A stretch of 64,000 bases of DNA, from positions 97,130 to 161,129 of the IMG/VR virus record IMGVR_UViG_3300014325_000010. The stretch is one strand, 5' to 3'. The stretch comes from a virus. Position 1 is the first letter of the stretch. Each line of letters opens with the position of its first letter. Shown here in pieces: positions 29,683 to 36,792 of the stretch. The notes beneath the pieces were generated by a model. It did not search any database. It had not been told where the DNA came from and was given only the letters and a program-made list of their open reading frames with translations. Position numbers and translations under genes: made by a program.

Positions 29683-29821
29683 CCTGTCGTCCATCTTTGC
29701 GCTTACATGCTTATGGAGCCGGGGGTTGCGGGTTCGAGTCCCGTCACCCAGCCTTTCAGTATGCTGGGTGTAGCTCAATGGCTAGAGCACCGTTAGTTTC
29801 GCGCAATAACTTGACGACAGG
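29683..29821 (+). ncRNA. Y RNA-like element Y1 (YrlA-type): Ro-binding nested stem enclosing a permuted tRNA-like module
   Basis: Outer stem cctgtcgtc/gacgacagg and inner stem ttgcgc/gcgcaa, separated by internal loops catct/taact. Conserved 5' GUCCAUC and 3' ACUUGAC strands. The insert has a T-arm (gcggg-ttcgagt-cccgt), an acceptor 3' strand cacccagc, a loop ctttcagtat, an acceptor 5' strand gctgggtg and a D-arm (gctc-aatggcta-gagc). This is the tRNA order permuted. Confidence 0.7.
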
Positions 29822-29953
29822 ACCATTCTCTCGGGTTGGGAGAAACAAGCTAGTCGAGCCAAAGATCTCTAAGCTAGTTGCGGGATTAATGTCTTAGAGA
29901 CGACTTGATTAGCAAAGGCCGCTACTATGAAACCCAGCCCGATTCACTTTTAT

Positions 29954-30086
29954 CTCGTCGTCTACTGATGTGCTTACATGCTTATCACGCAGGAGGCATA
30001 GGGTTCGAATCCCTGTCACCTAGTCCCAGACTGGGTGTAGTTAAGTGGTCAAAACGCCTAGTTTCGCACATTGACTTGACGACGAG
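29954..30086 (+). ncRNA. Y RNA-like element Y2 (YrlA-type) with permuted tRNA-like module
   Basis: Outer stem ctcgtcgtc/gacgacgag and inner stem atgtgc/gcacat, with loops tactg/tgact. TTACATGCTTAT follows the inner stem, as in Y1. T-arm is aggg-ttcgaat-ccct. The acceptor is closed by a CCA-containing loop (cacctagt-cca-gactgggtg), followed by a D-arm-like region. Confidence 0.65.
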
Positions 30087-30094
30087 AACTCTCG

Positions 30095-30224
30095 CCTTGC
30101 TGTTTACTGAAGAGCGTACATGCCACATAGCTCAGCTGGTAGAGCATCGGGTTTATAGCCCGAGTGTCATCGGTTCAAATCCGATTGTAGCAACCATCTC
30201 AAGCTCCTCGACTTAACAGCAAGG
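30095..30224 (+). ncRNA. Y RNA-like element Y3 enclosing a complete tRNA-Ile(TAT)-like sequence
   Basis: Outer stem ccttgctgtt/aacagcaagg (10 bp) and inner stem gaagagc/gctcctc (1 mismatch). The GTACATGC motif is present. The 3' conserved strand is the variant gacttaac. Confidence 0.6.
30121..30196 (+). tRNA. tRNA-Ile-like (anticodon TAT) with encoded CCA, embedded inside Y3
   Basis: Cloverleaf: acceptor tgccaca/tgtagca (one C-A mismatch), D-stem gctc/gagc, anticodon stem tcggg/cccga with loop tttatag, T-arm atcgg-ttcaaat-ccgat, discriminator A, then CCA. Confidence 0.55.
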
Positions 30225-30232
30225 GCTCCTTT

Positions 30233-30354
30233 CCCCACTGTCCACTGTGTAACGTACATGACTAGCTCAATTGGTAGAGCTCCTGCTTGATACGCAGGTT
30301 GTTCCTGGTTCGATTCCGGGGTCAACTCCGTTGTTACGCGACTTGACAGTGGGG
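30233..30354 (+). ncRNA. Y RNA-like element Y4 enclosing a tRNA-like domain (anticodon-arm GAT, imperfect acceptor)
   Basis: Outer stem ccccactgtc/gacagtgggg (10 bp) and inner stem gtaac/gttac. GTACATGAC motif and 3' ACUUGAC strand are present. Inside are a D-arm gctc-aattggta-gagc, an anticodon arm cctgc-ttgatac-gcagg and a T-arm cctgg-ttcgatt-ccggg. The acceptor pairing is poor (2 mismatches). Confidence 0.6.
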
Positions 30355-30516
30355 ATCTCTTATTCGCAAGAATAGGAGATCCAATCTTAGATCGGTCTGA
30401 ATTCACGCAAAATTTTATGGGTCCAGATTGAGTTTCTCCTAAATAAAGCTCTTGATCAGCGTGATCCAATATTGATCCCAATAAGATTGGGATCAGAAAT
30501 TTAATCGAGGATTGTT

Positions 30517-30768
30517 ATGACAAATGAATTCTCTGTTTACCAGTGGTTCGTCAATAATTCATACGAAGAAGTACTTCGCTTCGTTGAAGCTGAAAGCGCA
30601 TTGATAACCGCAACTCGACTCACACAGAGTGTGGGAGGAAGGATGGGAACAACTAAACGCGTGATTATCACCGATGGAGGTGATTTCATCGTTTGGGAAT
30701 GGCTACACGGAGAAGGAGTTGTATTTCCACCCTCCGCCGCAGAAGACGACAATATGAAAACAGAATAG
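30517..30768 (+). CDS. hypothetical protein
   Basis: RBS gagga. Confidence 0.4.
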   Translation: MTNEFSVYQWFVNNSYEEVLRFVEAESALITATRLTQSVGGRMGTTKRVIITDGGDFIVWEWLHGEGVVFPPSAAEDDNMKTE

Positions 30769-30778
30769 GAGTTTCTGA

Positions 30779-36233: not shown

Positions 36234-36370
36234 CTTAGACCTTTACTTGATAAAAGTAAGTAGGTTAAAATTACTTTAGGGTTAGTTAGGGCGCTGAAAG
36301 TTTAGAGCCTGACTACCCGCAAGTTTGGGTGCCTAGCTTCGCTTGAACCTGTCGTCCGATGACTTCATCA

Positions 36371-36413
36371 AAGCGTCTAAGACGGCTTAAATGAGGGTAA
36401 GATTACCTCAGCC
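36371..36413 (+). repeat. 45-nt repeat family F2, copy a: AAGCGnCTAAGACGGnTTAAATGAGG + hairpin + GCC, upstream of Y7
   Basis: Four copies whose hairpins covary (tgagg/cctca versus tggag/ctcca). Confidence 0.6.
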
Positions 36414-36423
36414 CAAAGGTTTG

Positions 36424-36492
36424 CCCGAGTCCATCGTGAAGCTTACATGCTGTTGTGCAAACTGCTAACGTTGCTTCATAACTTGACTTGGG
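36424..36492 (+). ncRNA. Y RNA-like element Y7 (short)
   Basis: Outer stem cccgagtc/gacttggg and inner stem tgaagc/gcttca, with loops catcg/taact. TTACATGC motif is present. 5' GUCCAUCG and 3' ACUUGAC strands. Confidence 0.6.
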
Positions 36493-36550
36493 CAATTGTT
36501 TTGATGGTTCCCTAGCACGCTCGTTATTTGCGCGATAAGAGCGCCATGTA

Positions 36551-36595
36551 AAGCGGCTAAGACGGGATTAAATGGAGTGGAACATTGCTCCAGCC
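36551..36595 (+). repeat. F2 copy b
   Basis: aagcggctaagacgggattaaatggagtggaacattgctccagcc. Confidence 0.6.
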
Positions 36596-36658
36596 AGCGG
36601 TGAGTTGGAAGGTGCCCGAATGCAACGCCTCTAACATGATGGATTCCAAAATGTCCTA

Positions 36659-36702
36659 GGCGGCGATGACGGGATTAAATGAGGTGGATTTTGGCCTCAG
36701 CC
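36659..36702 (+). repeat. F2 copy c, upstream of Y8
   Basis: ggcggcgatgacgggattaaatgaggtggattttggcctcagcc. Confidence 0.6.
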
Positions 36703-36721
36703 TTCAGATTGGAATCGCCAA

Positions 36722-36792
36722 TTTCGCGTCTATCTCGGAGCTATACATGCTTCTGTTAAAAGCGAACGTCAGCTCCGTAACTTGACGCGAAA
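36722..36792 (+). ncRNA. Y RNA-like element Y8 (short), immediately upstream of the TROVE gene
   Basis: Outer stem tttcgcgtc/gacgcgaaa and inner stem cggagc/gctccg, with loops tatct/taact. TATACATGC motif is present. Confidence 0.6.

What the first reader, a model, noticed from the sequence alone, without database searches (positions are those of the whole stretch)
29697..36740. Invariant TACATGC heptamer inside every Y-like element
TTACATGC, ATACATGC or GTACATGC follows the inner-stem 5' strand in all eight elements. It does not obviously pair with the opposite strand. This suggests a sequence-specific contact, for example with the TROVE protein or a nuclease, or a tertiary motif.
Basis: seen in the sequence. 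Interest (0 to 1): 0.5.

Follow-up and report, generated by a model that had tools for sequence, protein, structure and literature searches.

The report
Conserved UACAYG junction in phage Y-RNAs
The repeated TACATG(C) is real: it is the invariant, mostly unpaired junction on top of the protein-binding stem of a large, undescribed class of phage Y-RNA-like RNAs, which are encoded next to a very divergent Ro60 protein.

Summary
Partly confirmed. All eight elements carry TACATG 12-13 nt after the outer stem. The seventh base is C in only six (A in element 4, T in element 6).

The motif holds across the family. In 75 related viral and metagenomic loci, a scan that used stems only, never the motif, found (N)UACAYG at that offset in 75 of 89 plus-strand hits and 0 of 13 minus-strand hits. 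Base 7 is free.

Module: outer stem | YAC | 9-bp inner stem (U·G, G-C ... G-C, C-G, U-A) | UACAYG | variable insert (tRNA-like, circularly permuted tRNA-like, true tRNA or short hairpin) | A-rich linker | inner stem | ACUY | outer stem. Both stems covary strongly. UACA is predicted unpaired; in this window the G usually starts the next helix.

The neighbouring ORF has no Pfam TROVE hit, but its model matches Ro60 structures over its full length. In its structurally consistent alignments, Rfam's YrlA model places UAC on the conserved YUAY, the kink nucleotides of Salmonella YrlA. The usual Ro60 motif CGAA is absent.

Best reading: UACAYG is the upper half of a two-part recognition and hinge module for the phage Ro60-like particle. 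Function is inferred, not shown. It is not a promoter. New variant of a known kind.

The parts
29682..29822 (+). Y-like element 1. Outer stem 29682-29691 / 29813-29822; TACATGC 29704-29710; ACTT 29809-29812. The insert is a circularly permuted tRNA-like domain (T arm, closed acceptor-like hairpin, D arm).
   Evidence: Rfam YrlA RF02553 gives 41 bits, E 1e-6, below the gathering score of 69.
29953..30087 (+). Y-like element 2. TACATGC 29975-29981; ACTT 30074-30077. Permuted tRNA-like insert.
30095..30224 (+). Y-like element 3. TACATGC 30117-30123; the 3' motif is ACTTAAC, 30211-30217. The insert is a normal-order tRNA-Ile(TAT), 30121-30196, with encoded ACCA. The tRNA starts at base 5 of the motif.
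30232..30355 (+). Y-like element 4. TACATGA 30255-30261 (seventh base A); ACTT 30341-30344. The insert is tRNA-Ile(GAT), 30256-30329, with two acceptor-stem mismatches.
   Evidence: Weak Deinococcus_Y_RNA alignment.
33640..33720 (+). Y-like element 5 (short type). TACATGC 33661-33667; ACTT 33708-33711. It lies directly after tRNA-His, 33545-33621.
35037..35190 (+). Y-like element 6. TACATGT 35061-35067 (seventh base T); the 3' motif is ACTTGTC, 35175-35181. The insert has a T arm plus several hairpins.
36421..36495 (+). Y-like element 7 (short hairpin type). TACATGC 36444-36450; ACTT 36481-36484.
36722..36792 (+). Y-like element 8 (short hairpin type, 13-nt offset). TACATGC 36744-36750; ACTT 36780-36783. 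It ends 42 nt before the Ro-like ORF.
36834..38363 (+). Divergent Ro60 ortholog (TROVE ring plus vWA domain with a DxSxS metal-binding motif), 509 aa. It is the presumed protein partner of the elements.
   Evidence: No Pfam TROVE hit. AF2 model with pLDDT 82. Foldseek against PDB: the top 13 hits are all Ro60 orthologs, E 2e-9 to 4e-6, TM about 0.5-0.63, aligned over about 490-540 columns. More than 500 homologs, all unnamed.
30779..33397 (+). Major-vault-protein homolog lying inside the array of elements. It is context, not part of the motif.
   Evidence: Pfam MVP_shoulder 4e-28 and Vault_3 2e-10. Also present near the Ro-like gene in L004 and L007.

Best explanation
TACATG(C) is the DNA image of UACAYG, the invariant junction of a divergent, phage-borne class of Y-RNA-like (YrlA-like) RNAs.

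Each RNA has a common 'handle' made of these parts, in order:
- an outer stem;
- a small internal loop (5' YAC opposite 3' ACUY);
- a 9-bp inner stem with sequence-conserved ends (U·G and G-C at the bottom; G-C, C-G, U-A at the top);
- UACAYG.

U-A-C-A is unpaired and faces an A-rich 3' linker. The following Y-G often opens the next helix, which carries a freely exchangeable insert (tRNA-like, permuted tRNA-like, true tRNA or a short hairpin).

Shown here: the motif belongs to the handle, not to the insert. It keeps a fixed 12-nt register to the lower loop, about one helical turn. It corresponds in position to the conserved YUAY of bacterial YrlA.

Inferred: the handle is the binding platform of the phage's own Ro60-like protein. 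The genome-specific lower loop would set cognate specificity. The universal UACAYG, together with the conserved G-C/C-G pairs beneath it, would be a second base-specific contact and a hinge that sets the angle of the insert relative to the protein ring.
For: 1. Position. The motif is present in 8 of 8 elements at +12/+13 from the outer stem.
2. Unbiased family test. A scan using stems and loop classes only gave (N)TACAYG at +12 in 75 of 89 distinct plus-strand hits and in 0 of 13 minus-strand hits.
3. Real RNA helices. On 84 elements, 92.9% of cells are paired against 54.6% in shuffles; the covariation score is 0.925 against 0.196 (0 of 500 shuffles reach it); 14 of 15 pairs change on both sides; the U·G wobble is kept in 72 of 84.
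4. Pairing state. Mean predicted unpaired probability is 0.67-0.83 for U-A-C-A and about 0.4 from G onward in 126 elements. The window's eight elements show the same pattern.
5. Independence from the insert. The first tRNA nucleotide falls anywhere from -2 to +10 relative to the motif.
6. Homology. In its structurally consistent alignments, Rfam's YrlA model places UAC on the conserved 'CUAc' that follows a 5-nt loop plus a 7-bp helix, and places ACUUG on the model's 3' 'AcUuG'. Those U-A nucleotides cause the kink in the Salmonella YrlA crystal structure (bioRxiv 10.1101/312249) and are the conserved YUAY of Chen et al. 2014 (PMC4201824).
7. Partner. The adjacent ORF has a Ro60 fold.
8. Specificity pattern. 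The 3' loop tetramer is identical in 83% of within-genome pairs and 36% of between-genome pairs. UACAYG stays constant even where the lower loop has changed, at 36-44% protein identity.
Against: - There is no binding, footprinting or expression data; the protein contact is inference.
- The usual Ro60 determinant (CGAA / GNCGAAN0-1G) is absent, so how this protein binds RNA is unknown.
- In some relatives the hexamer is fully paired as a tRNA acceptor strand (L063: UACAUG with CGUGUA). 'Single-stranded' is therefore not universal.
- A motif more conserved than the putative specificity loop could equally be read by a conserved host factor.
- cmscan gave a second, shifted alignment for two elements, placing 'AcAUGC' on the model's 'A-AUGC' of the CGAA region. 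That alignment breaks several pairs.
- The test for a helix that starts exactly at Y5 was only mildly positive: 35 of 101 against about 24 in shuffles.
Confidence: 0.55

Rival explanations
1. UACAYG is a purely RNA-intrinsic hinge or kink, the counterpart of the U23-A24 kink of Salmonella YrlA. It fixes the geometry between the handle and the insert without any base-specific protein contact.
For: The motif aligns with YUAY. A kink was seen at those nucleotides in the protein-free crystal structure 6CU1. UACA is unpaired opposite an A-rich linker.
Against: A hinge rarely needs six invariant bases plus conserved flanking pairs. The opposite strand has no conserved partner sequence. The motif is kept even where it is fully paired (L063) or abuts quite different inserts.
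Confidence: 0.17
2. UACAYG tethers a second, conserved factor rather than Ro60 itself. One candidate is the KH/S1 domains of host PNPase, as in Ro60-Y RNA-PNPase complexes. Another is a phage protein of the same gene neighbourhood (cold-shock-domain protein, MVP homolog).
For: The motif is more conserved than the genome-specific lower loop, as expected for a conserved partner. Known Y RNAs tether Ro60 to PNPase through the end distal to the Ro60 site (PMC4201824; PMC12135203). Cold-shock-domain and MVP genes recur near the Ro-like gene.
Against: There is no evidence for any such interaction here, and no known UACAYG-specific binder. The exchangeable insert is the more natural effector-binding module.
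Confidence: 0.14
3. UACAYG is a processing or cleavage signal. It could be cut by a host or phage endoribonuclease to split or mature the RNAs, or act as a decoy for a UACAU-specific MazF-type toxin.
For: The motif is an exposed single-stranded stretch. M. smegmatis YrlA is cleaved in vivo and both halves stay bound to Ro60. UACAU is the core of Gram-positive MazF sites. In element 3 the tRNA 5' end falls inside the motif.
Against: The tRNA start, and therefore the RNase P site, has no fixed relation to the motif: offsets run from -2 to +10. About a quarter to a third of relatives have UACAC. Base 6 is G, whereas the strict MazF site is UACAUA and a G at that position was not cleaved in the reporter test.
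Confidence: 0.09
4. The motif works at the DNA level, as part of a promoter or another protein-binding DNA site for each element.
For: The conserved block YACTG-N4-GCT-TACAYG is 18 bp long, and ACTTGAC resembles a -35 hexamer.
Against: No sigma-70-like promoter overlaps any copy: one minus-strand match in 29200-30800 against 1.4 expected. The motif lies inside a helix whose variable positions covary. The TTGAC-like 3' motif is not kept in relatives, which have ACTC, ACAC or ATTT. Adjacent array elements sit only 7 nt apart, which fits one processed transcript. Unusual phage promoters are not excluded by the scan.
Confidence: 0.03
5. The shared hexamer is only inherited from recent duplication of one element and is not under selection.
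For: The elements occur in arrays within a genome.
Against: The stems and inserts of the eight copies share no other sequence. The hexamer persists in 43 or more genomes with 36-79% Ro-like protein identity, while 14 of 15 stem pairs changed on both sides.
Confidence: 0.02

Closest known systems
Bacterial and phage YrlA (Y RNA-like A; Rfam RF02553; Chen et al. 2014 PMC4201824; Wang et al. 2018 bioRxiv 10.1101/312249)
   Same: - Encoded beside, and on the same strand as, a Ro60 ortholog.
- A long 5'/3' stem interrupted by an internal loop.
- A second helix followed 12 nt after helix 1 by a conserved YUAY/UAC.
- Conserved ACUUG before the 3' strand of helix 1.
- A circularly permuted tRNA-like domain (T arm, closed acceptor, D arm) in elements 1, 2 and 6.
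- Scores of 33-51 bits, similar to the 52 bits of a YrlA next to an annotated Ro-like gene in Gordonia phage Boopy.
   Different: - The Ro60 motif GNCGAAN0-1G / CGAA is missing and YACUG takes its place.
- The conserved junction is six bases (UACAYG) rather than YUAY.
- All hits fall below Rfam's gathering score.
- Inserts may be normal-order tRNAs, acceptor-less tRNA-like domains or plain hairpins.
- There are up to 8-11 elements per genome.
- The partner protein is too divergent for Pfam TROVE.
Deinococcus radiodurans Yrn1/Yrn2 and metazoan Y RNAs
   Same: - A Ro60-binding stem formed by the RNA ends, with bulges.
- In this window the 3' strand reads ACUUGAC, which is the CUUGAC I recall from the 3' strand of human Y1/Y3/Y5 (from memory, not checked here).
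- The Yrn1 consensus also has UUAC directly above its Ro-binding helix.
   Different: - The 5' strand GGUCCGA is absent.
- UUGAC is not kept in relatives (ACUC, ACAC, AUUU), so the likeness to the metazoan 3' strand is probably coincidental.
- There is no Rfam Y_RNA hit at E <= 10, and only a 20-bit hit to Deinococcus_Y_RNA.
Thermus phage phiLo Ro60 with Yrl1/Yrl2 (PMC12135203; PDB 9KOP, 9L5Y)
   Same: A phage-encoded Ro60 with Y-RNA-like genes directly upstream. The phiLo protein is the best structural match of the window's protein.
   Different: The phiLo RNAs were defined by, and bind through, the CGAA motif, which is absent here. Sequence identity to phiLo Ro60 is only about 14%.
MazF (B. 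subtilis / S. aureus) recognition site UACAU(A)
   Same: It shares the pentamer UACAU with 8 of 8 window copies.
   Different: The strict site is UACAUA. The phage motif always has G at base 6, and UACAC in roughly a quarter to a third of relatives. This is a resemblance only.

Membership tests
YrlA (Rfam RF02553 / Chen et al. 2014) | Encoded near a Ro60 ortholog (typically within about 4 kb) and on the same strand. | tested here: met
   Elements 7 and 8 end 339 and 42 nt upstream of the Ro-like ORF; the others lie 1.6-7 kb upstream. All are on the + strand. Relatives carry arrays within about 0.8 kb upstream.
YrlA (Rfam RF02553 / Chen et al. 2014) | GNCGAAN0-1G (CGAA) motif in the 5' strand, the proposed Ro60 contact. 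| tested here: not met
   The 5' loop is YAC(UG) in all eight elements and in the family consensus. Element 6 contains CCGAAG inside its inner stem, but that does not fit GNCGAA.
YrlA (Rfam RF02553 / Chen et al. 2014) | Conserved YUAY after the second helix, at the start of the tRNA-like part. | tested here: met
   In three alignments with few or no broken pairs, cmscan places (U)UAC of the motif on the model's CUAc with high posterior probability. The offset from helix 1 is 12 nt in both.
YrlA (Rfam RF02553 / Chen et al. 2014) | Circularly permuted tRNA-like domain (T arm, closed acceptor stem, D arm). | tested here: inconclusive
   Present in elements 1, 2 and 6. Elements 3 and 4 hold normal-order tRNAs, and elements 5, 7 and 8 hold only short hairpins, like YrlB. 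The family-wide mix is given.
YrlA (Rfam RF02553 / Chen et al. 2014) | Score at or above Rfam's gathering threshold of 69 bits. | tested here: not met
   The best score in the window is 41 bits; the best in relatives is 51 bits. A YrlA beside an annotated Ro-like gene in Gordonia phage Boopy also reaches only 52 bits.
Metazoan-type Y RNA (Rfam RF00019) | Bulged helix with 5' GGUCCGA paired to 3' UUGAC(C/U). | tested here: not met
   There is no RF00019 hit at E <= 10. The 5' strand is absent, and the 3' UUGAC is limited to this phage's clade.
Ro60 / TROVE protein (the partner) | HEAT-repeat ring plus a C-terminal vWA domain with a metal-binding (MIDAS) motif. | tested here: met
   Full-length Foldseek matches to Ro60 of Thermus phage phiLo, D. 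radiodurans, Xenopus and human. DxSxS at D312, S314 and S316 is invariant. The sequence-profile test (Pfam TROVE) was negative.
Ro60 / TROVE protein (the partner) | Binds the Y-like RNAs. | not testable with these tools
   Only co-location and the genome-specific variation of the loop bear on this.
Sigma-70 promoter | -35 and -10 hexamers with 16-18 nt spacing that include the motif. | tested here: not met
   One search finds no plus-strand promoter-like site in 29200-30800.

The most novel reading that the evidence does not exclude
UACAYG with its stem would be the universal 'handle' of a previously unrecognised phage ribonucleoprotein system. In this system a Ro60-like ring, possibly together with the co-encoded major-vault-protein homolog, holds a whole set of interchangeable RNA cargoes: true tRNAs, acceptor-less or permuted tRNA mimics, and hairpins. 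Such a system might shield phage tRNAs from host nucleases, or present tRNA decoys to them. The hexamer would then be the address label that defines cargo for a phage Ro/vault-like particle.
Probability: 0.15. Interest if true: 0.85.

Novelty: new variant of a known kind. Interest (0 to 1): 0.55.

Why it matters
- **A search handle.** The module YAC-9 bp-UACAYG ... ACUY finds a large class of Y-RNA-like genes. I collected 126 high-confidence elements in 43 viral or metagenomic loci. Current resources miss this class: every Rfam hit is below threshold, and the partner protein is invisible to Pfam TROVE and unnamed in more than 500 database entries.
- **A different Ro60 recognition mode.** Ro60-type particles can apparently use an RNA recognition motif other than CGAA. 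The ancient YUAY kink of YrlA is here enlarged into a six-base invariant.
- **A natural comparison set.** One constant handle joined to many different inserts, including real tRNAs, is well suited to asking what the tRNA-like half of bacterial Y RNAs is for. That question has been open since 2014.

Tried and rejected
Fourteen bases with a 30-nt gap window are not specific in a collection of that size.
- **Pairing with the opposite strand or with the loops.** I found no conserved complement by inspection. The 3' side is only A-rich.
- **A helix that closes the insert and starts exactly at Y5.** 35 of 101 against about 24 in shuffles. Inconclusive.
- **Promoter.** None found.
- **MazF site or decoy.** Base 6 is G, not A, and UACAC variants exist.
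- **Kink-turn, GNRA tetraloop receptor, U-turn.** Considered by inspection only. The sequence lacks tandem G·A pairs and the UAUGG/CCUAAG receptor. No tool test was run.
- **Equating the motif with CGAAUGC (the Ro60 motif).** cmscan aligned it this way for element 1 and for L007 8862. That register breaks helix 1 and several other pairs, so I rejected it in favour of the YUAY register.
- **Pfam, phmmer against PDB, and tblastn against cultured phages for the Ro-like protein.** Negative or nearly so. Only the fold comparison identified it.
- **Supplementary YrlA alignments of Chen et al. 2014, and the 2020 review.** Not held in the library.
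Full report
**1. Observation**

The + strand carries eight stem-loop elements at 29682-29822, 29953-30087, 30095-30224, 30232-30355, 33640-33720, 35037-35190, 36421-36495 and 36722-36792. 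Each has four common features:
- a 9-12 bp outer stem;
- a 5' stretch of 12 nt (13 in element 8);
- then TACATG;
- on the far side, ACTT immediately before the 3' strand of the outer stem.

The hexamer is present in 8 of 8. The seventh base is C in six, A in element 4 (30255-30261) and T in element 6 (35061-35067). 'Invariant TACATGC' is therefore overstated and 'invariant TACATG' is correct. The raw window count of TACATGC (12 against 6.4 expected) proves little. What matters is the fixed register in eight elements that otherwise share no sequence.

**2. Surroundings**

- ARAGORN and Rfam find six tRNA genes. Two lie inside elements: tRNA-Ile(TAT) in element 3 and tRNA-Ile(GAT) in element 4.
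- Elements 1, 2 and 6 hold T arms and D arms in permuted order. Element 1 matches Rfam YrlA at 41 bits (E 1e-6, gathering score 69).
- Elements 5, 7 and 8 hold only short hairpins.
- The ORF at 36834-38363, which starts 42 nt after element 8, has no Pfam TROVE hit even at E = 10 and no sequence match in the PDB.
- Its AlphaFold2 model (36-sequence alignment, pLDDT 82) matches Ro60 orthologs along its whole length. The 13 best Foldseek hits are Thermus phage phiLo Ro60, D. radiodurans Rsr, Xenopus Ro and human Ro60 (E 2e-9 to 4e-6, TM about 0.5-0.63, 13-15% identity). It is a very divergent Ro60.
- More than 500 homologs exist and none is named.
- The 872-aa ORF at 30779-33397, inside the array, is a major-vault-protein homolog.

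**3. The family**

Protein-anchored searches gave 75 loci from viral contigs and metagenome assemblies.

A scan that required only the stems and loose loop classes, never the hexamer, returned 89 distinct plus-strand hits. Of these, 75 have (N)TACAYG at +12. The minus strand gave 0 of 13.

The consensus module is:

outer stem | YAC | U-G-N4-G-C-U | UACAYG | insert | A-rich linker | A-G-C-N4-C-G | ACUY | outer stem

On 84 elements:
- both helices covary: 92.9% of cells paired against 54.6% in shuffles, covariation score 0.925 against 0.196, 0 of 500 shuffles as high, and 14 of 15 pairs changed on both sides;
- a U·G wobble next to the lower loop is kept in 72 of 84;
- the G-C and C-G pairs under the hexamer are kept in 75 and 66 of 84.

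These elements were selected for pairing, so the percentage paired is partly built in. The diversity of pair types is not.

It is no more alike within a genome than between genomes, 34% against 28%. Base 5 is U or C, sometimes both within one genome.

The hexamer persists in loci whose Ro-like protein is only 36-44% identical, where the lower loop has already changed to GAC, UAA, ACAU or AUCY.

**4. Pairing state**

- Partition-function folding of 126 elements gives mean unpaired probabilities of 0.67, 0.83, 0.75 and 0.81 for U, A, C and A. The value is 0.60 for Y and about 0.4 from G onward.
- In the window's eight elements UACA is likewise mostly open. G6 and C7 are predicted paired in six of them, as the first pairs of the next helix. 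This probably explains why C is frequent at base 7 here.
- In short-type relatives the hairpin visibly starts at Y5-G6 (UGC/GCA, CGA/UCG and similar). A formal register test was only mildly positive.
- The motif is tied to the handle and not to the insert. In 35 elements with normal-order tRNA-like inserts, tRNA nucleotide 1 falls from -2 to +10 relative to the U. In one case (L063) the whole hexamer is an acceptor strand paired with CGUGUA.

**5. Relation to known RNAs**

Chen et al. 2014 define YrlA by the 5' motif GNCGAAN0-1G, a tRNA-like domain, and a conserved YUAY that begins the variable-loop region. Wang et al. [quoted passage not shown]

For three relatives, Rfam's YrlA model aligns the phage elements with few or no broken pairs (49-51 and 37 bits):
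- the outer stem falls on helix 1;
- YAC-UG falls on the loop that carries CGAAUGC;
- the inner stem falls on helix 2;
- (U)UAC falls on 'CUAc';
- ACUUG falls on the model's 3' 'AcUuG'.

The distance from helix 1 to the UA is 12 nt in both. A rival register puts 'AcAUGC' on 'A-AUGC'. It breaks helix 1 and several other pairs, so I reject it.

The D. radiodurans Yrn1 consensus also has UUAC right above its Ro-binding helix.

The CGAA motif, used to find the phiLo Yrl RNAs and shown there to matter for binding, is absent here.

A YrlA beside an annotated Ro-like gene in Gordonia phage Boopy scores 52 bits. The sub-threshold scores of this family are therefore in the normal range for phage YrlA.

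**6. Mechanism**

Shown: the motif is an RNA-level, handle-associated, mostly unpaired invariant, homologous in position to the YrlA hinge.

Inferred: the handle is the platform for the phage's Ro60-like protein.

The 3' loop tetramer is the same in 83% of within-genome pairs but only 36% of between-genome pairs. That pattern is expected for a specificity determinant that co-evolves with a genome-encoded protein.

UACAYG and the conserved pairs beneath it lie one helical turn away on the same strand and never change. I read them as a second contact and hinge of the same particle (confidence about 0.55).

Rivals, roughly in order of likelihood:
- a protein-independent hinge;
- a tether for another conserved factor such as host PNPase;
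- a cleavage signal;
- a DNA-level promoter.

Against the last two: no sigma-70-like site overlaps the motif. MazF-type recognition (UACAUA) does not fit the invariant G or the UACAC variants.

**7. Novelty**

I found no paper describing Y-RNA-like RNAs with this motif, or a phage Ro60 paired with an MVP homolog. The library does not cover subscription journals.

I class the finding as a new variant of a known kind. The hinge position is known from YrlA. The six-base invariant, the replacement of CGAA, the modular inserts and the divergent protein partner are new.

Noticed in passing
window 30779-33397 (+); also L004 2309-4921 and L007 2092-4611: A major-vault-protein homolog (Pfam MVP_shoulder 4e-28, Vault_3) lies within the array of Y-like elements. 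It recurs near the Ro-like gene in related phages, together with DUF7873 and a vWA protein. A phage encoding both an MVP-like protein and a TROVE/Ro60-like protein, the two protein types of vault and Ro particles, does not seem to have been described.
   Followed up: partly
window 36834-38363 (+): The Ro60-like protein belongs to a family of more than 500 unnamed proteins. Pfam TROVE does not detect them, and only the vWA half is sometimes annotated. Only the fold comparison identified the family.
   Followed up: yes
window 30121-30196 and 30256-30329 (+): Two tRNA-Ile genes (anticodons TAT and GAT) are embedded as the 'insert' of Y-like stems. The first has an encoded ACCA end. The second has two acceptor-stem mismatches. 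It is open whether they are released as working tRNAs.
   Followed up: partly
window ~36384, 36561-36577, 36668-36684, 39545-39561 (+): A second repeated motif, GACGG(G/C)(A)TTAAATGRRG followed by a short hairpin and CAGCC. There are 3 matches at up to 2 mismatches against 0.11 expected, plus one copy that is 1 nt shorter. Three copies sit just upstream of short elements 7 and 8.
   Followed up: no
43 loci, e.g. L036 and L040 (ATTT), L057 (ACAT), L003 (ACAC), L051 (ACTC), L033 (ATCC): The 4-nt 3' loop of the handle is nearly uniform within a genome (83% of pairs identical) and differs between genomes (36%). This suggests co-evolution with each phage's own Ro-like protein.
   Followed up: partly
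alignment A2, columns 10 and 45 (in window element 2: U 29966 with G 30073): A U·G wobble directly above the lower internal loop is kept in 72 of 84 elements and almost never becomes U-A or C-G. Conservation of this kind is often seen at protein or metal recognition points.
   Followed up: no
L003 9568, L010 4460, L012 4772, L038 2613, L039 3420, L043 3722, L053 2786 and others: A recurrent insert subclass: UACAYG is followed at once by UAGCUCA (U8, A9, D arm). The tRNA-like domain has no real acceptor stem. After the T arm there is instead a small GNRA-capped hairpin (such as CCCC-GCAA-GGGG or UCCC-GAAA-GGGA).
   Followed up: no
L315 2440-2579 (Gordonia phage Boopy MK894436.1, complement of 88691-88830): A YrlA-like RNA with a CGAA motif lies about 1.15 kb downstream of the annotated 'Ro-like RNA binding protein'. 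It overlaps a feature annotated as tRNA-Leu that reaches only 28.8 bits on the tRNA model, so the annotation is probably wrong.
   Followed up: partly
window 29609-29637 and 29660-29683: Two strong hairpins lie between the upstream ORF (ending at 29601) and element 1. The first was called terminator-like on the minus strand. They may bound the transcription unit of the array.
   Followed up: no
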